This document shows positions 56,103 through 64,000 of a stretch of 64,000 nt of DNA, one piece after another. Location: NCBI GenBank assembly GCA_002698665.1, contig NZZP01000036.1, positions 5,125 to 69,124 of the forward strand. Reading direction: 5' to 3'. The translations under genes and the position numbers were made by a program. The stretch is from Gammaproteobacteria bacterium. Lineage in GTDB: Bacteria > Pseudomonadota > Gammaproteobacteria > GCA-002705445 > GCA-002716945. Numbering within the stretch: the stretch's first letter is position 1; each line of letters begins with the position of its first letter. Below the pieces are notes generated by a model that ran no database searches, was not told the origin of the DNA, and saw only the letters and a program-made list of their open reading frames with translations.

Positions 56103-57213
56103 ATGATTAATTTAGAAGATATGTTAGAACAAACTAAAGATTTCGCTAAAAGGCTTTCCGAAATCCGGAGGTTAGTTTGACTATGATGGTATAAGGTCTC
56201 GTATTGACAATCTAAACACAGATTTGTCATCTGAAGAGATATGGTCAAATAAATATAAAATGTTAGAGTTACAGAGGGAGTTAAAAAACCAGCAAAACAT
56301 CTTAAAAAATATTTCTGATATTCAGAGTAATATTGAACTCGTTGAATATACTATTAAGTCTCTTATTGATGAAAATCAATTGGATAATAATGATGATATT
56401 ATTAACGAAATGCGTGATATATCAAAACATCTTTCTAAAGACATTGTTTGTATCGAAACAACACTGCTATTTAAAAATAAAGAAGACTTCTATGATGCCT
56501 ATATTGATATTCAGTCAGGGTCTGGTGGCACAGAAGCACAAGATTGGGTTTCAATGCTACTTAGAATGTATACACGCTGGCTAGATAACAAAGGTTTTAA
56601 ACATGATATTATAGATCTTTCTGAGGGTGAGATAGCTGGTTATAAGAGTGTAACAATTAAAGTTATAGGTGATTATGCATATGGTTGGCTGAGAACAGAA
56701 ACAGGAGTACACCGTCTAGTCAGAAAATCTCCATTTGATTCGGGGAGCAGGAGACATACCTCATTTGCATCAGTGTTCGTTTATCCACAGATTAACGAAG
56801 ATATTGAGGTGAGTATCAACCCTACTGATTTAAGAATTGATGTTTACAGAGCAAGTGGCGCAGGTGGTCAACATGTAAACACTACTGAGTCAGCAGTTAG
56901 AATTACTCATATCCCTAGTAAGATTGTTACTCAATGCCAGAATGATAGATCTCAACACAAAAATAAAGAAAGCGCTATGAAACAATTACGTGCTAAACTA
57001 TATTTATATGAACTTAATAAACAGAATGAAATAAAAAACAAAGTTGAATCAGAAAAATCAGATATTTCATGGGGTAATCAAATTAGGTCATATATATTAG
57101 ATGACTCAAGAATAAAAGACCTACGAACTAAACATGAAACAGGTAATATTCAAGCTATATTGGATGGTGATCTGGATGAATTTATAGAAAAAAGTTTAAA
57201 AGAAGGACTATAA
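56103..57213 (+). CDS. prfB: Peptide chain release factor 2, requires programmed +1 ribosomal frameshift at codon 26
   Basis: Frame 0 (ATG 56103) reads MINLEDMLEQTKDFAKRLSEIRRLV then in-frame TGA (56178). The +1 frame continues DYDGIRSRIDNL ... through the SPF, GGQ (GAGGQHVNTTESAVRITHIP) and Q-methylation motifs, aligned to E. coli RF2. An SD-like GGAGG lies 3 nt upstream of the slip codon. Confidence 0.8.
56167..56181 (+). promoter_or_regulatory. prfB autoregulatory +1 frameshift cassette: internal SD GGAGG, 3 nt spacer, GUU UGA C
   Basis: Same architecture as the E. coli AGGGGG-uau-CUU UGA C cassette, but with GUU as the slip codon. Confidence 0.7.
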
Positions 57214-58685
57214 TGGCAGAAGAAAACAAATTAATTACAGAAAGAAGAAAGAAACTAGAGGAAATCAAAAAAAAATATAAACCTTATCCAAATAGTTTTA
57301 AAAAAGTTGATAACACTGCCTCACTTATAGATCAATATAGCGATAATGATAAAGAAAGCCTTGAAAAAAAATCTGTTAATGTTTCTATATCAGGTCGACT
57401 ATTAACTATTAGGAATATGGGAAGTTCATCTTTTGCTAACCTCCATGACGAATATGGAGATATTCAAATTTACTTACAAAAAAAACAAATTGGTGATGAC
57501 AGTTATGAGTTATTCAAAAATTTAGATCTTGGTGATGTTGTAGGAATACAAGGTAAACTCTTTAAAACCAAAACAGGTGAGTTGACTATCAATACAAGTT
57601 TTATCCAACTTTTATCTAAATCACTTAGACCATTGCCTGAAAAGTTCCATGGCATTGCTGATATTGAGATTAAATATAGACAGCGATATTTGGATTTAAT
57701 GATAAATCCAGAAACTAAAAACTTATTTAAACTAAGGTCTAATATTATTTCGACTATACGTAACTATTTTATAAATGATGACTATTTGGAAGTAGAGACA
57801 CCTATGATGCATATGATACCAGGTGGAGCGACTGCAAAGCCATTTGTAACACATCATAATTCTTTAGATCTTGATTTATACTTACGGATAGCACCAGAGT
57901 TATTTCTAAAACGATGCATTATAGGTGGTTATGAAAAAGTATTTGAAATTAATAGAAGTTTTAGAAATGAAGGTTTGTCTGTAAAGCATAATCCAGAATT
58001 CACGATGATTGAATTTTATTGTGCTTATGAAGATTATAATTACTTAATGAAATTTATTGAAAGACTATTTGATAGATTACTACATCAACATGAGATTGAT
58101 AAAGTCATTAATTATCAAAATTATCAGGTGAATCTAAAAACTCCATTTACTAAAATAAAATTTTACGATGCGATTCAGAAATATGTTACTGGGATTAATT
58201 CAACAAAAATTAACGATATTGACTATCTTGAAAAATTTTGCTCGTCACATGAAATAACTTTAAGAGATAAATCTTCTTTGATTGATATACATCTCGATAT
58301 ATTTGAAAAGATTGTAGAGAAAAAGCTAATAGATGCAACATTTGTTACACATTATCCTACAAAGATTTCACCTTTATCTAGAAGTTTTGATGATAACCCT
58401 GACTTAGTTGAAAGATTTGAATTATTCATTGCTGGTAGAGAAATTGCAAATGGATTTTCTGAACTTAATGATCCACAAGAACAATCAAATAGATTCAAGT
58501 TGCAAGTAGAATCGAGTACTGATGATAAAATGAGTTATGACGAAGACTTTATAACAGCTCTTGAGTATGGAATGCCTCCTACAGCGGGTGCTGGGATAGG
58601 TATCGACAGACTTATTATGTTGTTAACTGATTCCCAATCAATAAGAGATGTTCTATTATTCCCTCATATGAAACCTAAAAAATAA
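57213..58685 (+). CDS. lysS: Lysyl-tRNA synthetase (class II)
   Basis: OB-fold N-domain and class II motifs (FRNEGLS, GIGIDRLIMLLT). prfB-lysS coupling as in E. coli. Confidence 0.9.
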   Translation: MAEENKLITERRKKLEEIKKKYKPYPNSFKKVDNTASLIDQYSDNDKESLEKKSVNVSISGRLLTIRNMGSSSFANLHDEYGDIQIYLQKKQIGDDSYELFKNLDLGDVVGIQGKLFKTKTGELTINTSFIQLLSKSLRPLPEKFHGIADIEIKYRQRYLDLMINPETKNLFKLRSNIISTIRNYFINDDYLEVETPMMHMIPGGATAKPFVTHHNSLDLDLYLRIAPELFLKRCIIGGYEKVFEINRSFRNEGLSVKHNPEFTMIEFYCAYEDYNYLMKFIERLFDRLLHQHEIDKVINYQNYQVNLKTPFTKIKFYDAIQKYVTGINSTKINDIDYLEKFCSSHEITLRDKSSLIDIHLDIFEKIVEKKLIDATFVTHYPTKISPLSRSFDDNPDLVERFELFIAGREIANGFSELNDPQEQSNRFKLQVESSTDDKMSYDEDFITALEYGMPPTAGAGIGIDRLIMLLTDSQSIRDVLLFPHMKPKK

Positions 58686-58905
58686 TACTCTTAAGTTTTT
58701 TAATAGCATCATCAAGATTTGAGAAAGTATATGGATCAACATTATTGTATTCATAAATATTAATATATTTATTTATAACAATATAGATTTCAGATTCATC
58801 TAAATAGACTCTTATTTCGTTACATATTGATTGATACTCATAACCAGACTCTTGTATACATAATTCTAACTCAGATAGTATATGATACTTATCTTTTAGC
58901 ATCAC
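58675..58905 (-). CDS. Small hypothetical protein (76 aa), uncertain
   Basis: ORF in the lysS/purB convergent junction. It overlaps both neighbours by 11-17 nt. It has acidic, non-repetitive composition. Not recognised. Confidence 0.3.
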   Translation of the reverse strand: MMLKDKYHILSELELCIQESGYEYQSICNEIRVYLDESEIYIVINKYINIYEYNNVDPYTFSNLDDAIKKLKSIIF

Positions 58906-60256
58906 AGAGATCTATTGCATACCCAATATAGTTTCTTGGTGAGAGTAAGAGTAATTTATCTTTTTCTGATTCAGGAATTTTTAATGATAGAATTAATTCA
59001 TGCATCATTTTTTTTGTTACAGATTGACCCCTAGTTTTATTTTTTAATAACTCATAAGAATTAGAAATATTATATTTCCTAGCTATCATTTGAATAGGTT
59101 CAGCTAAAAGTTCCCAACTATTATCAATATCATCATTAATTTTATTTTTATTAATTTTAAGCTTATTTAATCCTAATATAAGATTTTCATAGGCTAAGAA
59201 AGAGTAACTAAAACCAACACCTAAATTTCTCATAACTGTAGAATCTGAAAGATCTCTTTGAAGTCTAGAGATAGTCAATTTCTCAGATAAAAATCTTAAC
59301 ATACTATTTGCTAGTCCTAAATTGCCTTCTGCGTTTTCGAAGTTTATTGGATTGATCTTATGCGGCATTGTTGATGAACCAATTTCTCCTGAAATATTTT
59401 TTTGTATGAAATAGTTTTTAGATATATATGTCCACATATCTTGTGAAAATCCAATCAATACAGAATTTAGATGCGATAACATGTTATTTATTTCACATAT
59501 GTAGTCATGAGGCTCAATTTGGGTAGTATAATTATTTTGAGAGATACCTAAATTATTTATAAACTTCTTATTTATTATAGGCCAGTTTAGATTTGGAAAG
59601 GTTGTTTTATGAGCTGAATAATTACCAGTTGCACCATTGAACTTTCCCTCTATATTTATACTTTCTAGTTTACTAGATAGTTTATTCAATCGATGATAGA
59701 AATTTAGAAATTCTTTTCCCATTGTTGTTGGAGTAGCTGGCTGACCATGAGTATGTGACAGCATTACATCTTTAGAATATTTTCTAATATTCTTATTCAT
59801 TATTTTCTTCAAATCATTAATTTTATTCAAAATAATATCTCTTCCTTGTGTCATTATTAGAGCATAAGCAAGATTATTAATATCTTCTGAAGTGCAACAA
59901 ATATGAATGTATTCTTTATATTTTTTTAAACTAGTAGATTTATCAAATTTAGATTTGAGAAAATATTCAACTGCTTTAACGTCATGTTTTGTTGTTTTTT
60001 CATAATTTTTAATAATCTTTGCATCAGTTATGCTGAATTTATTTATGATGTTATTTAGGAATTTTTTATCTTTACTAGTTAGTTTTGGTATTCTAGATAT
60101 TTTATTTAGTTCTGACAAATATATAAACCATCTAACTTCAATTTGGACACGATATTTGATTAAGCTATACTCAGAAAAGATAGTTCCTATATCTTTACAA
60201 ATTGCTGAATATCTTCCATCTAATGGAGAGATTGAGAGTAAATCATCTTTTTTCAT
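58889..60256 (-). CDS. purB: Adenylosuccinate lyase
   Basis: Fumarate-lyase superfamily signature (GSSTMPHKINP) with a PurB-type N-terminus (SPLDGRYS). Confidence 0.9.
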   Translation of the reverse strand: MKKDDLLSISPLDGRYSAICKDIGTIFSEYSLIKYRVQIEVRWFIYLSELNKISRIPKLTSKDKKFLNNIINKFSITDAKIIKNYEKTTKHDVKAVEYFLKSKFDKSTSLKKYKEYIHICCTSEDINNLAYALIMTQGRDIILNKINDLKKIMNKNIRKYSKDVMLSHTHGQPATPTTMGKEFLNFYHRLNKLSSKLESINIEGKFNGATGNYSAHKTTFPNLNWPIINKKFINNLGISQNNYTTQIEPHDYICEINNMLSHLNSVLIGFSQDMWTYISKNYFIQKNISGEIGSSTMPHKINPINFENAEGNLGLANSMLRFLSEKLTISRLQRDLSDSTVMRNLGVGFSYSFLAYENLILGLNKLKINKNKINDDIDNSWELLAEPIQMIARKYNISNSYELLKNKTRGQSVTKKMMHELILSLKIPESEKDKLLLLSPRNYIGYAIDLCDAKR

Positions 60257-60315
60257 ACCAACATTTATCTCAAAGATGTTATTATAGCATATAATAATTT
60301 AATATTAAAAATCAT

Positions 60316-61695
60316 ATGAAAAAAACTACATACAGAATAGAACAAGATTCCCTGGGTAAAGTCAAAGTACCTAAAAATGCTTTATATGGCGCTCAAACAC
60401 AACGAGCTATTGATAACTTTAAAATTAGTGCAGATGTTTTCCCGCCAGAATTCATTGAATGTTTATCTGCCCTAAAAGCTGCTTGTGCGATAAGTAATAA
60501 TAAACTTAAGTTATTATCTACTCGAAAAGCTAAGGCTATATACTCAAGCGCAATGAATATTAATATGAATATAGGGAAATATTTTGATCAGTTTCCAATT
60601 GATATATATCAAACAGGTTCTGGTACAAGCACGAATATGAATATGAATGAAGTATTATCAAATATAGTTTCTAAGAAACTCAAAGTAAGTATACATCCAA
60701 ATGATGATATTAATAAATCACAAAGCTCAAATGATGTTATTCCAAGTACGATAAATATCAGTAGCGTTTTACTAGCATTTGAATTAAATGATGCCCTCGA
60801 TTATTTAACTATGAGATTGATAGAGAAAGAGTTTGAATTAAAAGATATTATAAAATCTGGCAGAACTCATCTGATGGATGCTGTTCCTTTATCATTTGGC
60901 TATGAGATAGAGTCATGGCGAGAACAAGTGGCTCACTGCAATGACCCATTATTACGAAGTGCAGAAGAGCTCCAATATTTACCAATAGGTGGTACCGCTA
61001 TAGGAACTGGTTTAAATGCACCAAAGTCATTTGGAAAAACTGTATGTTTAGAACTTAATAAGATTTATTCAAAAACTGGAGTAAAGTTTTCTTCAAATCC
61101 TAATAAATCTGAAATGATAAGTTCTCAAAATCACATATTAACAATGAGTGGAGCATTACAACGAGCTTCAAGCTGTTTAACAAAAATCTCCAACGATTTA
61201 CGATGGATGAACAGCGGTCCAGTTTCCGGACTTTCCGAGATTACTCTGAAACCATTGCAGCCTGGCAGCAGTATAATGCCTGGTAAAATTAATCCTGTTA
61301 TTCCAGAAGCTGTTTTAATGGCAATGACTCAAGTTACTGGTAATCATAATGCAATTAACCTTGCATGCATTTCTGGAAATTTTCAGTTAAATACTATGCT
61401 TCCACTCCTGGCATTTAATATAATTAACTCTTTTAACTTGTTAATTAACTCTACATACTCCATTGCAGAAACTATAGACACATTTAATGTTAATATTGAG
61501 AAAATCGATGCTAATCTTGAGAGAAATCCAATAATAGCTACTAAACTTAACGAAGTGATTGGATACGATTTAGCTTCTAAAATTGTAAAAAAAGCATATG
61601 CAACTAATAGATCCATTATTGATATAACTGAAGAGATGACAGATTTATCTAAGAAACAAATCTTAAAGTTACTAAACCCAAAAAAGTTAATCTAG
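60316..61695 (+). CDS. fumC: Class II fumarate hydratase
   Basis: High identity to E. coli FumC (QTGSGTSTNMNMNEV, GSSIMPGKINPV). Confidence 0.9.
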   Translation: MKKTTYRIEQDSLGKVKVPKNALYGAQTQRAIDNFKISADVFPPEFIECLSALKAACAISNNKLKLLSTRKAKAIYSSAMNINMNIGKYFDQFPIDIYQTGSGTSTNMNMNEVLSNIVSKKLKVSIHPNDDINKSQSSNDVIPSTINISSVLLAFELNDALDYLTMRLIEKEFELKDIIKSGRTHLMDAVPLSFGYEIESWREQVAHCNDPLLRSAEELQYLPIGGTAIGTGLNAPKSFGKTVCLELNKIYSKTGVKFSSNPNKSEMISSQNHILTMSGALQRASSCLTKISNDLRWMNSGPVSGLSEITLKPLQPGSSIMPGKINPVIPEAVLMAMTQVTGNHNAINLACISGNFQLNTMLPLLAFNIINSFNLLINSTYSIAETIDTFNVNIEKIDANLERNPIIATKLNEVIGYDLASKIVKKAYATNRSIIDITEEMTDLSKKQILKLLNPKKLI

Positions 61696-61699
61696 CTAA

Positions 61700-62419
61700 A
61701 TGATTGGTAGAAATATAAGTAATCTAATATTTATCAAATGGTTCATAGGTGTAATATTTTTTTTAATATTCATTTTTATATTAAATCATCTTGGTTTCCT
61801 GTATCCATTAATTAATAATGATGCGAGTTATATCACATCATTAATATTGTTGATTTTTATTTATTTTTCTATAAATGTTGGCATAGAACTATATCATTTA
61901 CGTGAGAGATATTTGAATATAAGTAATTTATTATCAGTCTCTAAAAATAAATCTAAAAAAGAAATAAATCTAATTTTACAGCAATTCTTAAATTCTAATC
62001 ATAGTGATGATCAATCTATATATACATATATTACTGCTAAAGAGAATAATGAGTCTTCAAAAGAAAATTTCGAATATTCACTTACATCAAAATTAAACAT
62101 TGGATGGTTAGTTGCAGATGGTTTATTAAAACTAGGTCTCATAGGAACAGTAATTGGCTTTATTATCATGTTATCAGCTATAACTGAAATTGATGGTTTT
62201 GATTTTACGATGATGAAAGATATGTTACAAAATATGAGTAAAGGTATGGAAGTTGCCCTATATACGACACTATCTGGACTCGTGAGTTCGGTCTTATTAT
62301 CTATGCAATACTCATATTTAGAGCATTATATATATAAAATATTTTATATGTCCAATTTATGCTTATCGAATTTTTTGCCTGAACCTATAAATATAAAAAA
62401 TGATGATGAAGAAATATAA
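61700..62419 (+). CDS. MotA/TolQ/ExbB-family proton-channel protein (239 aa)
   Basis: C-terminal half carries the family core: LKLGLIGTVIGFIIMLSAI (channel helix) and ALYTTLSGLVSSVLLSMQY (last TM). Two additional N-terminal hydrophobic helices are present. Confidence 0.6.
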   Translation: MIGRNISNLIFIKWFIGVIFFLIFIFILNHLGFLYPLINNDASYITSLILLIFIYFSINVGIELYHLRERYLNISNLLSVSKNKSKKEINLILQQFLNSNHSDDQSIYTYITAKENNESSKENFEYSLTSKLNIGWLVADGLLKLGLIGTVIGFIIMLSAITEIDGFDFTMMKDMLQNMSKGMEVALYTTLSGLVSSVLLSMQYSYLEHYIYKIFYMSNLCLSNFLPEPINIKNDDEEI

Positions 62420-63005
62420 TAAATTTGATCCATTTACTGATTTGCTTTTTAATATATTACTAGCTTTTACTTTTTTATTTTTTATTACAATTTTATTCAT
62501 TAATCCCATTACAAAATTTGGAAATGTTAATATGAAAGCTGAATATATCATTACAGTGGACTGGAATGATAGTTTGCCTGATGATATTGATCTCTGGGTT
62601 AAAGACCCTAATGGAGAGATTGTATCATATCTAAAGAAAGATGCAGGATGGCTACACTTAGATAGAGATGATCAAGGGATTATTAATGATAAAGTTACAA
62701 TCGATGGCAAAGAAACTGTTTATCCTATTAACAGGGAGGTAGTAACTTTAAGAGGAATTATTCCTGGAAACTATGTTGTAAACTTATATATGTATGACAA
62801 TAAAAGCATGAAACCTGTAAATGCTAAAATAACTATTGAAAAAGTAAATCCAACATTAAAACTTGTCTTTTTTGATAATGTTGTCCTTAAGGATAAAGAT
62901 ACTGAATTAACTGTAGTTAAATTCAGATTAGATTCAACTGGAAACTTTAGCCATATTTACACTGATAATGAAATACTAACGCCATATGGTCTAGAGGGTA
63001 TATAG
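62400..63005 (+). CDS. ExbD/TolR/MotB-like single-pass protein with non-canonical periplasmic beta-rich domain
   Basis: N-terminal FDPFTDLLFNILLAFTFLFF matches the ExbD (PFIDVMLVLLIIF) and MotB (YADFMTAMMAFF) helix, with the protonatable Asp conserved. The 160 aa periplasmic part (DDIDLWVKDPNGEIVSY ... GNYVVNLYMYD) is not an ExbD or OmpA domain. Confidence 0.5.
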   Translation: MMMKKYNKFDPFTDLLFNILLAFTFLFFITILFINPITKFGNVNMKAEYIITVDWNDSLPDDIDLWVKDPNGEIVSYLKKDAGWLHLDRDDQGIINDKVTIDGKETVYPINREVVTLRGIIPGNYVVNLYMYDNKSMKPVNAKITIEKVNPTLKLVFFDNVVLKDKDTELTVVKFRLDSTGNFSHIYTDNEILTPYGLEGI

Positions 63006-63445
63006 TGTTGGCTGAAATAATAATTATCATATTGACATTATTAATTATATTTACCTATCTTCTTTACTTATTATTCAAAAAAGAGTCTTTCAAAAAAATG
63101 ATTATTTTATCATCTTCAATATTTATTTTTTTTGTAATTACATTCAATAGTATGATTAATATTCTTGGATATCCTGTGGTTTCTAAATTACCTGAGAGAT
63201 TTGATTTACTATTTGTAAAAGTAATAAATAAAAATATTATTATATTAGTAAAAGACATTAACATAGATAAATATCCTAGATTGCATATACTGGACCATAG
63301 TATTTCTCTAGAAGATGAGTTTAAAAAAGCTTCATATGATTTAAAAGATGGTAAAAAAGTCATTGGTATAATTGATGAAAATATTTCCGATAATCATTAT
63401 GGAATCATATTTAAACCAATTAAAAGAAATATTCCTGCTAAATAA
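63005..63445 (+). CDS. Second single-pass ExbD/TolR-like partner (Glu in place of Asp), uncharacterised C-terminal domain
   Basis: N-terminal MLAEIIIIILTLLIIF has Glu at the position of the conserved TM Asp. A second hydrophobic segment and a 90 aa soluble domain follow. Translationally coupled (ATG overlaps the upstream stop). Confidence 0.4.
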   Translation: MLAEIIIIILTLLIIFTYLLYLLFKKESFKKMIILSSSIFIFFVITFNSMINILGYPVVSKLPERFDLLFVKVINKNIIILVKDINIDKYPRLHILDHSISLEDEFKKASYDLKDGKKVIGIIDENISDNHYGIIFKPIKRNIPAK

Positions 63446-63503
63446 TATGAAAACTTCAACTTTTTTATGATAGAATATCCACAATTTTTTGAGAGATTAA
63501 AGC

Positions 63504-64000
63504 ATGGATTTTAAAAATCATCTAGTTGAATCAAGTGTAAAATATAATATTTTTGATATAAGTAAATCCAAAATATCTCATTTACCTTACTCCCTAAGGG
63601 TATTATTTGAGAATTATGTTAGAAATAATAAAACTATATCTGAAAAAATAATCAAGAAATTTGAATCTTGGGATGGCAGTATAGAAAATCAGACAGAATT
63701 AACCTTTTTCCCAAGTAGAGTAATCATGCAAGACTTTACTGGTGTTCCTGCTGTTGTTGATTTAGCTTCTATGAGAGATGCCGTTAGAGCATTAAACGGA
63801 GATCCAGCACTTATTAACCCACAATGTCAAACTGATTTAGTTATAGACCATTCTGTTATGGTTGATCACTATGGTGCTGCAGATTCAAAAGATCTCAATA
63901 CCAAACTAGAATATAAGAGAAACATCGAGAGATATAGACTACTTAAATGGGGTCAAAGTGCATTTAAAAATTTAAGAATAGTGCCACCTAATAATGGAAT
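63504..64000 (+). CDS. acnA: Aconitate hydratase A (N-terminal fragment; continues beyond the window)
   Basis: VIMQDFTGVPAVVDLASMRDAV ... DLVIDHSVMVDHYG matches AcnA (VLMQDFTGVPAVVDLAAMREAV ... DLVIDHSVTVD). Confidence 0.85.
   Translation, partial: MDFKNHLVESSVKYNIFDISKSKISHLPYSLRVLFENYVRNNKTISEKIIKKFESWDGSIENQTELTFFPSRVIMQDFTGVPAVVDLASMRDAVRALNGDPALINPQCQTDLVIDHSVMVDHYGAADSKDLNTKLEYKRNIERYRLLKWGQSAFKNLRIVPPNNG

What the first reader, a model, noticed from the sequence alone, without database searches (positions are those of the whole stretch)
61700..63445. Orphan MotA/ExbB-type proton channel with two atypical ExbD/MotB-like partners between fumC and acnA
Three tightly coupled genes (overlaps of 20 nt and 1 nt) sit between the TCA-cycle genes fumC and acnA. 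They encode a 239 aa MotA/TolQ/ExbB-family channel and two single-pass partners. Each partner carries the family-defining protonatable residue in its TM helix: Asp in FDPFTDLLFNILLAF in the first, and Glu in MLAEIIIIILTLLII in the second. Neither partner has an ExbD/TolR periplasmic domain or a MotB OmpA-like peptidoglycan-binding domain. The first instead carries a 160 aa beta-rich module whose DDIDLWVKDPNGEIV ... GNYVVNLYMYD pattern resembles pre-peptidase C-terminal/bacterial Ig-like sandwiches. The second carries a different 90 aa domain. No TonB, TolA, Pal, flagellar or gliding genes are adjacent. This looks like a pmf-powered stator module coupled to an unknown effector, analogous in principle to Tol-Pal, TonB, GldLM or Zorya ZorAB but matching none of them. 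I consider it the strongest candidate for an undescribed system in this window.
Basis: partly seen in the sequence, partly recalled or inferred. Interest (0 to 1): 0.72.

Follow-up and report, generated by a model that had tools for sequence, protein, structure and literature searches.

The report
Minimal TolQ-like motor shared with phages
Three overlapping genes encode an uncharacterised, stripped-down relative of the proton-driven Tol/Ton/flagellar-stator motors, with two novel periplasmic partners; the same three-gene cassette occurs in many marine and soil Proteobacteria and in hundreds of phage genomes, where one partner is sometimes fused to a lysozyme.

Summary

- **p1** is a bona fide MotA/TolQ/ExbB protein. 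Its closest solved relative is TolQ.
- **p3** is not a second ExbD/MotB-like subunit. It has two hydrophobic segments and its Glu4 is not conserved.

The p1-p2-p3 order is the only thing shared across SAR86-like bacteria, other Gammaproteobacteria and Alphaproteobacteria. It is also kept in about 80 fetched IMG/VR viral loci. Cultured Rhizobium/Sinorhizobium phages (16-3, RHph_N3_19, the P10VF group) carry p2 homologues flanked by p1- and p3-like genes. The fumC/acnA flanks are specific to the SAR86-like lineage.

In one phage clade p3 is fused to a T4-type lysozyme. In another clade the trio lies between spanin-like genes and small membrane proteins.

Best reading: a self-contained, minimal proton-driven 5:2-type motor that acts in the periplasm, probably on the cell wall or envelope. 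No described family covers p2 or p3. I rate it a new variant of a known kind, with high interest.

The parts
61700..62419 (+). p1: MotA/TolQ/ExbB-family membrane protein, 239 aa. An extra N-terminal TM is followed by a TolQ-like three-TM core. The channel motifs are LGLIGTVIGFI (about residues 143-153) and GMEVALYTTLSGL (about residues 182-194).
   Evidence: Pfam PF01618 at E 3.4e-10, 40.2 bits against a cutoff of 22.9. hhalign of the p1 profile against E. coli TolQ gives probability 88%, E 3e-6. The best PDB sequence hits are TolQ at E 1.4e-6. G146, G149, T150, A186, T190 and G193 are invariant in 27 diverse homologues.
62400..63005 (+). p2: single-pass partner, 201 aa. A TM helix (residues 11-33) is followed by an all-beta periplasmic domain (residues about 46-187). 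It overlaps p1 by 20 nt.
   Evidence: ORF. AlphaFold2 model from a 64-sequence alignment, pLDDT 89.4. The family has 1664 representatives of 50%-identity clusters at E<=1e-3. No Pfam, NCBIfam, PADLOC or PHROGs family covers it.
62439..62441 (+). Codon GAT for p2 Asp14, the candidate proton-accepting residue, inside the motif F12-x-D14-L-L-F-N18.
   Evidence: D14 is present in 151 of 151 distinct cellular and viral homologues; F12 in 147, L16 in 150, F17 in 149 and N18 in 147. The sequence was read.
62535..62960 (+). p2 periplasmic beta-sandwich (residues about 46-187) with an invariant acidic and polar set: W55, D62, D64, D90, D91, G93, E113, R118.
63005..63445 (+). p3: 146 aa, GTG start, overlaps the p2 stop by 1 nt. 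It has two hydrophobic segments (roughly residues 1-26 and 28-59) and a periplasmic region (residues about 55-146) with conserved G55-(W/Y)-P, P91-R92, G116 and a C-terminal L-P-x-K.
   Evidence: ORF. Alignments of 27 and 148 homologues. No Pfam or PDB match. C-terminal lysozyme fusions in phage homologues indicate that the C-terminus is periplasmic.
60316..61695 (+). fumC (class II fumarase). It ends 4 nt before the p1 start, which leaves no room for an intergenic promoter. This flank is lineage-specific and is not part of the module.
   Evidence: ORF. Pfam Lyase_1/FumaraseC_C on the orthologous neighbours. This gene family is present in only 25 of the 80 cellular loci.
63504..64000 (+). The 5' part of acnA (aconitase), which runs off the window. 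This flank is also lineage-specific and not part of the module.
   Evidence: Sequence. Pfam Aconitase on the orthologous neighbours. The family is present in 20 of the 80 cellular loci.

Best explanation
The three genes form one self-contained module that encodes a minimal TolQ/ExbB-type, proton-driven 5:2-style membrane motor whose output is in the periplasm.

- **p1** would form the pentameric channel/rotor ring.
- **p2** would form the central dimer. Its invariant TM Asp14 would take up and release protons. Its short linker holds an acidic TerD/PPC-like beta-sandwich just above the membrane. By analogy with TolR and MotB, this sandwich may be a Ca2+- or glycan-dependent anchor.
- **p3**, a TM hairpin with a periplasmic domain, a variable charged linker and a conserved C-terminal LPxK motif, would be the third component that receives or delivers the work. 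This is analogous to TonB/TolA, not homologous to them.

The target is most likely the cell wall or envelope. In bacteria this would be a housekeeping envelope function. In phages it would be control of lysis or of envelope state during infection.

**Shown:** family membership of p1; the invariant Asp and the fold of p2; the two-TM nature of p3; strict co-occurrence and gene order in cells and phages; p3-lysozyme fusions.

**Inferred:** the 5:2 stoichiometry, rotation, Ca2+ or peptidoglycan binding, p3 as a transducer, and the cell-wall target.
For: - p1 passes the Pfam MotA_ExbB cutoff. Its channel helices align to TolQ and keep the conserved Gly/Thr motifs.
- p2 follows p1 with a 20-nt overlap and has one TM helix with Asp14 in 151 of 151 homologues. 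Its arrangement P-F-T-D-L-L-F resembles TolR P-L-L-D-V-L-L by eye.
- Gene order p1-p2-p3 holds in most of the 84 cellular loci: 58 by direct phmmer hits, and a p3-like ORF follows p2 in nearly all the rest. It also holds in 81 of the next 85 loci fetched, 80 of them IMG/VR.
- These three are the only gene families shared between lineages.
- The cytoplasmic loop of p1 is variable and nearly absent in the phage versions. This argues for a periplasmic output.
- p3 is fused to Pfam Phage_lysozyme (E about 1e-48) in 5 viral loci, and in 4 of 10 close relatives from independent datasets. In a sister contig the same lysozyme is a separate gene with its own signal-anchor (SAR)-like N-terminal segment.
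- In the L085-type phage contigs the trio lies between a GH108 endolysin with spanin-like genes and small TM proteins.
- In one cellular lineage it follows a YkuD L,D-transpeptidase with 4-nt overlaps. In another it follows IspA/YciB.
Against: - No complex was modelled or observed.
- The p2 profile shows no detectable similarity to TolR, even in the TM region, so 'B subunit' rests on position, topology and the Asp.
- p3 shows no similarity to TolA or any other known family.
- The lysis and cell-wall links come from a minority of loci. In the T4-like Rhizobium phages the trio sits among replication and early genes. In the SAR86-like lineage it sits between TCA-cycle genes.
- TerD-like folds have no established biochemical role beyond Ca2+ binding.
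Confidence: 0.55

Rival explanations
1. The trio is a diverged but ordinary ExbB-ExbD-TonB or TolQ-TolR-TolA set that energises outer-membrane transport or Tol-Pal function.
For: The closest solved relatives of p1 are TolQ proteins. The three-gene order of channel, single-pass Asp protein and membrane-anchored periplasmic protein mirrors tolQRA and exbBD-tonB. From my own knowledge, not tested here, SAR86 genomes are rich in TonB-dependent receptors.
Against: p2 has no ExbD/TolR domain and its fold is a TerD-like sandwich. p3 has two TM segments, no TonB_C or TolA_C domain and no similarity to TolA. The cassette is carried by many phages, and phage p1 versions shrink to 113-190 aa.
Confidence: 0.05
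2. p1 and p2 form a gated proton leak rather than a force-generating motor. In phages this would be a depolarising device that times lysis in the manner of a pinholin. The bacterial copies would be domesticated or serve to sense or dissipate the proton-motive force.
For: The trio lies inside a lysis cassette in the L085-type phage contigs. p3 replaces the signal-anchor (SAR)-like segment of a lysozyme in one clade; from my own knowledge, SAR endolysins are released when the membrane depolarises. The short linker places the p2 sandwich like a cap over the channel.
Against: In the T4-like Rhizobium phages the trio lies among replication and early genes. In Gammaproteobacteria the copies appear vertically inherited and sit in core-genome contexts. 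The strict conservation of a third protein, p3, is not needed for a simple leak.
Confidence: 0.15
3. The trio is a superinfection-exclusion or anti-phage envelope sensor. This would be a Zorya-like logic without the nuclease arm, used by phages against competitors and by bacteria as immunity.
For: p1 gives weak hits to ZorA models in PADLOC and NCBIfam (E 1e-4 to 3e-3). One of the better PDB hits is a 696-aa MotA/TolQ/ExbB-domain protein, similar in size to the ZorA models. The cassette is a mobile accessory unit in many phage backbones. In the T4-like Rhizobium phages it lies among replication and early genes; from my own knowledge, T4 keeps exclusion genes such as imm and sp in comparable regions.
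Against: The ZorA matches cover only the shared 70-residue channel motif and are far below the NCBIfam cutoff (16.8 bits against 100). There is no ZorA tail, no ZorB peptidoglycan-binding domain and no ZorC/D or other effector nearby. The cellular loci are housekeeping neighbourhoods, not defence islands.
Confidence: 0.12

Closest known systems
TolQ-TolR-TolA (Tol-Pal motor) and ExbB-ExbD-TonB (Ton motor)
   Same: The p1 channel helices are homologous to TolQ/ExbB. The gene order is channel, then a single-pass protein with a TM Asp near the cytoplasmic end, then a membrane-anchored periplasmic protein. The likely output is periplasmic.
   Different: The p2 periplasmic domain is a TerD-like beta-sandwich, not the ExbD/TolR alpha/beta domain. 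p3 has two TM segments and no TonB/TolA C-terminal domain. p1 has an extra N-terminal TM and a small, dispensable cytoplasmic loop. The module is also encoded by phages.
MotAB/PomAB flagellar stator
   Same: It is a MotA/ExbB-family A subunit with a B subunit carrying an invariant TM Asp. The B-subunit head may act as an anchor.
   Different: p2 has no OmpA-like peptidoglycan-binding domain. p1 has no FliG-interacting cytoplasmic domain. No flagellar genes are nearby. PDB matches to MotA/PomA are weaker than to TolQ.
GldLM/PorLM (type IX secretion and gliding motor)
   Same: Conceptually, both are ion-driven motors whose B subunit carries beta-sandwich domains into the periplasm. This comparison rests on my own knowledge of GldM.
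   Different: No sequence match to GldL or GldM families was seen in the Pfam scans. p2 has only one sandwich domain on a short linker. The hosts are Proteobacteria and their phages, which lack a type IX secretion system.
Zorya ZorAB anti-phage system
   Same: The A subunit belongs to the MotA/ExbB family, and p1 gives weak ZorA-model hits.
   Different: p1 is 239 aa, with no long ZorA tail. There is no ZorB-like domain and no ZorC/D. The loci are not in defence islands.
TerD / PPC / DUF2135 Ca-binding beta-sandwich modules
   Different: No member reaches a convincing family score. TerD is a soluble cytoplasmic protein, whereas here the sandwich is fused to a TM helix with an invariant Asp and is always paired with a MotA/ExbB gene.
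Signal-anchor-release (SAR) endolysins and membrane-tethered lysozymes of phage lysis systems
   Same: In one phage clade p3 takes the place of the N-terminal membrane segment of a T4/P22-type lysozyme. A sister contig carries that lysozyme with its own hydrophobic N-terminus.
   Different: p3 is a 150-200-aa conserved protein with a TM hairpin and its own periplasmic domain. It is present without any lysozyme in most loci, including the window.

Membership tests
MotA/TolQ/ExbB proton channel family (p1) | Match to Pfam PF01618 above the gathering threshold | tested here: met
   40.2 bits against a cutoff of 22.9, E 3.4e-10, residues 133-214.
MotA/TolQ/ExbB proton channel family (p1) | The two conserved channel-lining helices with Gly/Thr motifs, alignable to a solved member | tested here: met
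   hhalign against E. coli TolQ residues 131-202 gives probability 88%, E 3e-6. PDB TolQ hits reach E 1.4e-6. G146, G149, T150, A186, T190 and G193 are invariant.
MotA/TolQ/ExbB proton channel family (p1) | Adjacent, co-oriented partner gene whose single TM helix carries a conserved acidic residue | tested here: met
   p2 overlaps p1 by 20 nt. Asp14 is present in 151 of 151 homologues. Adjacency is kept in cells and phages.
MotA/TolQ/ExbB proton channel family (p1) | A5B2 assembly and ion-driven rotation | not testable with these tools
   No multimer prediction was available.
ExbD/TolR (p2) | ExbD/TolR periplasmic domain (Pfam PF02472) | tested here: not met
ExbD/TolR (p2) | N-terminal single TM helix with an essential Asp near the cytoplasmic end | tested here: met
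   The TM helix spans residues 11-33 in the model. D14 is invariant. TolR has P-L-L-D23-V-L-L at the equivalent place.
MotB / OmpA-like (p2, p3) | C-terminal OmpA-like peptidoglycan-binding domain (Pfam PF00691) | tested here: not met
TonB / TolA (p3) | Single N-terminal TM anchor, an extended linker and a TonB_C/TolA_C domain | tested here: not met
   p3 has two hydrophobic segments. There is no Pfam hit in 27 members. hhalign against E. coli TolA finds nothing. Only a variable charged linker in phage versions is reminiscent.
   The Glu4 column is mostly gap/A/S/G in 148 homologues. Only 65 of 148 have any D or E in residues 2-22, and at no fixed position.
Zorya ZorAB | ZorA with a long C-terminal tail, ZorB with a peptidoglycan-binding domain, and ZorC/D effectors nearby | tested here: not met
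   PADLOC ZorA hits have E 1e-4 to 1.5e-3, most covering only the roughly 70-residue channel motif of 640-700-residue models. NCBIfam gives 16.8 bits against a cutoff of 100. p2 and p3 have no PADLOC hit. The neighbours are fumC and acnA.
TerD family (p2 periplasmic domain) | TerD fold with its Ca2+-binding sites; sequence membership in Pfam TerD | tested here: inconclusive
PPC, pre-peptidase C-terminal domain (p2 periplasmic domain) | Match to Pfam PF04151 | tested here: not met
Phage lysis cassette component | Consistent placement next to endolysin, holin and spanin genes | tested here: inconclusive
   This holds in the L085-type contigs and, through the p3-lysozyme fusions, in one clade: 10 of 85 loci in all. 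It does not hold in the T4-like Rhizobium phages or in most other contexts.

The most novel reading that the evidence does not exclude
The trio is a previously unrecognised third class of periplasm-directed 5:2 motors, alongside Ton/Tol and GldLM. It is shared by abundant marine bacteria (SAR86-like, Pelagibacteraceae-like and SUP05-labelled lineages) and by many phage lineages. It would use the proton-motive force to switch cell-wall hydrolases or other envelope factors on or off mechanically through p3. In phages this would act as a clock or safety catch for lysis.
Probability: 0.25. Interest if true: 0.88.

Novelty: new variant of a known kind. Interest (0 to 1): 0.74.

Why it matters
Ion-driven 5:2 motors (MotAB, ExbBD, TolQR, GldLM, ZorAB) are a small set of machines. 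Each new member so far has revealed a new way of carrying inner-membrane energy to the envelope.

This module is unusually compact, with phage p1 versions as short as 113-190 aa. It has two partner proteins with no described family. It is common in some of the most abundant ocean bacteria and in hundreds of viral contigs.

Cultured, genetically tractable phages carry it (Sinorhizobium phage 16-3, Rhizobium phages P10VF and RHph_N3_19). The question of what a phage does with its own proton-driven motor is therefore directly testable. The p3-lysozyme fusions give a concrete first hypothesis: control of cell-wall hydrolysis by the proton-motive force.

Tried and rejected
- Single-sequence AlphaFold2 of p2 gave an unusable model (pLDDT 56). 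It was redone with a 64-sequence alignment.
- PHROGs has no family for any of the three proteins, including the phage versions. Only weak hits to the beta-domain of large uncharacterised phage proteins appeared, in line with the BFVD matches.
- The search for related loci with the 64-sequence alignment failed for lack of a conserved stretch. An 8-sequence alignment worked.
- hhalign of the p2 profile against TolR and of the p3 profile against TolA found nothing. Homology of p2 to ExbD/TolR is therefore not claimed.
- P0177 was first taken as a p1-p2 fusion. I rejected it as evidence: its N-terminus looks frame-scrambled and it has V and K in place of the invariant D14 and N18.
- The promoter and terminator scan of 60200-63700 gave counts no different from shuffled sequence.
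- Six literature searches found no description of this trio, of a TerD-ExbB link, or of phage-encoded MotA_ExbB lysis genes. The MotAB-evolution paper PMC12505986 was read only at outline level; its abstract mentions heterogeneous non-flagellar 'generic ion transporter' homologues and does not describe this family.
- Endolysin proximity alone was not used as evidence, because the chance of an endolysin within a few kb is not small. Only the gene fusions and the position inside a spanin-flanked cassette were used.
Full report

The window is AT-rich (about 22-35% GC around the region). Three same-strand ORFs lie at 61700-62419 (p1, 239 aa), 62400-63005 (p2, 201 aa) and 63005-63445 (p3, 146 aa, GTG start). 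They overlap by 20 nt and 1 nt. fumC ends 4 nt before p1. The acnA start is at 63504.

p1 matches Pfam MotA_ExbB at 40.2 bits against a cutoff of 22.9. p2 and p3 match nothing in Pfam, NCBIfam or PADLOC. So the genes, the overlaps, the MotA/ExbB assignment and the lack of ExbD, OmpA or TonB domains are confirmed.

Two details are not. First, p3 has two hydrophobic segments, not one. Second, its Glu4 is not conserved: the alignment column in 148 homologues is mostly gap/A/S/G. In contrast, Asp14 of p2 is present in 151 of 151 distinct homologues, inside the motif F-x-D-L-L-F-N.

**2. What the three proteins are**

*p1.* A profile of 27 diverse homologues aligns to E. coli TolQ residues 131-202 (hhalign probability 88%, E 3e-6). 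The best solved relatives are TolQ proteins (E 1.4e-6), ahead of a 696-aa MotA/TolQ/ExbB-domain protein, then MotA, ExbB and PomA. Invariant residues fall in the two channel helices: G146, G149, T150, and A186, T190, G193.

p1 has an extra N-terminal TM helix in front of a TolQ-like three-TM core. The shortest phage version (113 aa, RHph_N3_19) lacks this extra helix. The cytoplasmic loop between the second and third TM helices is about 65 aa here. It is variable in bacteria and almost absent in phage versions. This argues against a cytoplasmic output such as the MotA-FliG contact.

*p2.* AlphaFold2 with a 64-sequence alignment gave a confident model (pLDDT 89.4). It has a TM helix at residues 11-33, a short linker ending in a conserved N35-P36, and an all-beta domain at residues 49-187.

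- Foldseek against PDB found nothing significant.
- At sequence level there are only sub-threshold echoes. One is a motif match to the C-terminal domain of the subtilisin-like protease Tk-SP ('tlyW..s.sDlDLylyDPnGn.V.ys', E 0.3). Across 64 members, DUF2135 hits 4 (best E 6e-4), PPC hits 2 (E 0.16) and ExbD hits 1 (E 0.005).
- A profile comparison with E. coli TolR finds nothing.
- The periplasmic domain has an invariant acidic and polar set: W55, D62, D64, D90, D91, G93, E113, R118. This fits a metal-binding sandwich, but binding was not tested.

TerD is the best match, and no family membership can be claimed.

*p3.* It has two hydrophobic segments separated by a positively charged loop (KKESFKK). 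These are followed by an invariant G55-(W/Y)-P, a conserved P91-R92-(A/L)-(Y/H) element, G116, a linker that is long and Gly/Lys/Glu-rich in many phage versions, and a C-terminal L-P-x-K. No Pfam or PDB relative was found, and there is no similarity to TolA.

**3. Conservation and distribution**

The p2 family is large. It has 2769 clusters (90% identity) at E<=1e-3 with the single sequence. It has 1664 representatives of 50%-identity clusters. All names given by the sources are 'hypothetical'.

A pattern scan of one genome per species gave 95 confirmed loci, of which 80 were kept. Their record titles name:

- SAR86-like marine Gammaproteobacteria (58-87% identity to the window p2);
- Arenicellales, a MAG labelled Ca. 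Thioglobus (SUP05), and MAGs labelled Acidiferrobacter or Acidiferrobacteraceae;
- Alphaproteobacteria, including Geminicoccaceae, MarineAlpha6 and a Pelagibacteraceae MAG.

In these loci p1 immediately precedes p2, and a p3-like ORF follows. Clustering all flanking ORFs showed that p2, p3 and p1 are the only families shared across lineages (74, 69 and 64 loci). fumC and acnA flank the trio only in the SAR86-like lineage (25 and 20 loci).

Other cellular contexts are also housekeeping:

- IspA/YciB directly upstream in 14 gammaproteobacterial loci, with PanB, asparaginase and GcvH nearby;
- an ABC transporter and SufBCDS in the Pelagibacteraceae MAG;
- YkuD L,D-transpeptidase and DUF302, joined to the trio by 4-nt overlaps, with a VWA-FHA protein downstream, in two long contigs.

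**4.

Looking up contigs for more distant p2 homologues gave loci with ThyX, PhoH and a GH108 endolysin. A scan of IMG/VR found 316 viral stretches that encode a p2 relative. The order p1-p2-p3 on one strand holds in 81 of 85 loci, 80 of them IMG/VR and the other five from contig look-ups. Three of the remaining four are cut at a contig end upstream of p2, and one (L163) shows only p1.

PHROGs identified flanking genes as terminase large subunit, T4-type DNA polymerase, SbcC-like nuclease, ribonucleotide reductase and exonuclease. At least ten different neighbour sets are seen, and occasionally extra ORFs sit between p2 and p3. The trio therefore behaves as an autonomous cassette.

Cultured phages have it too. 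tblastn found 29 records, all Rhizobium or Sinorhizobium phages.

- In phage 16-3, the HMMs place p038 as p1-like (E 7e-4), tblastn places p040 as p2-like, and I read p042 as p3-like from its sequence.
- In RHph_N3_19 the corresponding genes are EVB99_065 (p1 HMM E 7e-7), EVB99_066 and EVB99_067.
- In P10VF (genes 191-193) and RHph_I1_18 (EVB91_122-124), only the middle gene was matched (tblastn). The flanking genes were assigned from gene order and size in the annotation.

A neighbour-joining tree of 151 p2 sequences shows three patterns. The SAR86-like group and the other Gammaproteobacteria lie next to each other. The Geminicoccaceae-type Alphaproteobacteria form another block. The MarineAlpha6/Pelagibacteraceae group is nested among diverse viral sequences. 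This suggests vertical inheritance in Gammaproteobacteria plus exchange between cells and viruses.

**5. Clues to function**

(a) *Lysozyme fusions.* In five viral loci p3 is one ORF of 295-301 aa. A complete p3, including its C-terminal motif, is followed by an acidic linker and a Pfam Phage_lysozyme domain (E about 1e-48). In the sister contig L128 p3 is unfused, and the homologous lysozyme lies 4.4 kb downstream with its own hydrophobic N-terminal segment of signal-anchor-release (SAR) type. A database search with the p3 part found 10 relatives, 4 of which carry PF00959, from NCBI, ENA and Tara sources. The fusion is therefore real. It also indicates that the p3 C-terminus is periplasmic, which agrees with the positive-inside loop.

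(b) *Lysis cassette.* In the L085-type contigs (L085, L124, L136, L143) the order is as follows:

- a GH108 endolysin;
- two small ORFs;
- a protein with an N-terminal TM and a coiled coil (i-spanin-like), overlapping a lipobox-like ORF (o-spanin-like);
- p1-p2-p3;
- three small TM proteins.

(c) *Cellular neighbours.* The YkuD and IspA/YciB neighbours in two cellular lineages are envelope-related.

*Against a simple lysis role.* In the T4-like Rhizobium phages the trio lies among topoisomerase, gp55-like sigma factor, gp46/47-like nuclease and clamp genes. The SAR86-like copies sit between TCA-cycle genes. A secreted ClpP/S49-like peptidase or a trypsin-like peptidase lies next to the trio in several phage contexts. 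This is unexplained.

**6. Most likely mechanism**

By analogy with solved 5:2 motors (reviewed in PMC9389320, seen only at abstract level), I propose the following.

- p1 forms the pentameric ring.
- p2 forms the central dimer. Its Asp14 cycles protons against the conserved Thr-containing p1 helices.
- The p2 sandwich sits just above the ring. It may anchor the dimer, perhaps through Ca2+ or glycan binding, as TolR and MotB anchor to peptidoglycan.
- p3, held in the membrane by its hairpin, is the element on which the ring acts or which carries the output. This is the TonB/TolA logic without homology.
- The lysozyme fusions and the lysis-cassette context suggest that the output concerns cell-wall hydrolysis or envelope state.

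Shown here: family membership of p1, the invariant Asp, the p2 fold, the p3 topology clue, and strict co-occurrence. Inferred: stoichiometry, rotation, anchoring and the target. I put 0.55 on the general model and about 0.25-0.3 on the specific idea of gating cell-wall hydrolases.

**7. Rivals**

- *Diverged ordinary Ton/Tol set (0.05).* The domain tests fail and phages carry the module.
- *Gated proton leak or holin-like depolariser (0.15).* This fits the lysis contexts but not the early-region or core-genome contexts, and it does not need p3.
- *Superinfection exclusion or Zorya-like sensing (0.12).* The ZorA matches cover only the shared channel motif, and no effector or defence island is present.

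**8. Comparison with known systems, and novelty**

The module works like Tol/Ton in layout. Only p1 is a member of a known family. p2 fails the ExbD/TolR, MotB/OmpA and PPC membership tests, and its link to TerD is at fold level only. p3 fails the TonB/TolA test. The Zorya and GldLM features are absent.

Six literature searches found no description of the trio. I therefore class it as a new variant of a known kind of machine: a MotA/ExbB-type motor with two undescribed partner families and an unexpected, broad presence in phages.

Interest is high for people who work on 5:2 motors, phage lysis and marine microbiology. Tractable phages that carry the module make it testable.

**9. Limits**

- No multimer model was made.
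- No whole-genome check for canonical Tol/Ton genes was possible.
- The genome and viral scans depended on short peptide patterns, so the counts are lower bounds.
- IMG/VR labels were verified by flanking genes for only a sample of loci.

Noticed in passing
window 56103-57213 (shift site 56167-56181): prfB (release factor 2) appears to use the programmed +1 frameshift. An ATG at 56103 opens a 25-codon frame that ends at an in-frame TGA (56178-56180). An SD-like GGAGG precedes it. The main ORF continues in the +1 frame. The slippery context is GTT TGA C rather than the classical CTT TGA C.
   Followed up: partly
window 58675-58905 (- strand): A small 76-aa ORF lies between lysS and purB. It is also called as an 80-aa gene with no Pfam family at the same position in related genomes (L001-L003, 4231-4473). 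It is a conserved unannotated small protein.
   Followed up: no
L106 2982-3869; L109 735-1622; L140 6299-7198; L149 8661-9560; L155 1604-2509; L128 7380-7913: These are p3-lysozyme fusion proteins in one phage clade. In sister contig L128 the homologous lysozyme is a separate gene with its own signal-anchor (SAR)-like N-terminus.
   Followed up: yes
L085 3659-8334 (the same layout occurs in L124, L136 and L143): The trio is embedded in an apparent lysis cassette. The order is GH108 endolysin, an i-spanin-like protein (TM plus coiled coil) overlapping an o-spanin-like ORF, the trio, then three small TM proteins.
   Followed up: partly
L148 6839-7540 and its family in about 16 viral loci; L176 3751-4491; L171 2148-3047 (phage 16-3 p036): Serine peptidases lie next to the trio in several unrelated phage contexts. 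They include a ClpP/S49-like peptidase with a signal-peptide-like N-terminus, a CLP_protease, and a trypsin-like periplasmic protease. This may be a partner or a coincidence.
   Followed up: partly
L087/L088 (40-kb and 27-kb metagenome contigs): Here the trio sits among many small unannotated ORFs, a DUF723 protein and an intein/LAGLIDADG-containing gene. The contigs also carry beta-oxidation genes (ECH/3HCDH, thiolase), isocitrate dehydrogenase, an ICL-family protein and a split aconitase. This is an odd mix that could be a large virus or an unusual cellular region.
   Followed up: no
L015 (PBJZ01000005.1, labelled Flavobacteriaceae MAG): Its p2 is 70% identical to the window protein and groups inside the SAR86-like clade in the tree. 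The contig is probably mis-binned.
   Followed up: no
L123 and L130 (288-aa ORF); L158 and L169 (two to three ORFs): Extra ORFs are inserted between p2 and p3 in some viral loci. They were not identified and may be homing endonucleases.
   Followed up: no
L089 and L177, 4113-8706: In one cellular lineage the trio appears to be in an operon with a YkuD L,D-transpeptidase and a DUF302 protein upstream (4-nt overlaps). A VWA-FHA protein lies downstream.
   Followed up: partly
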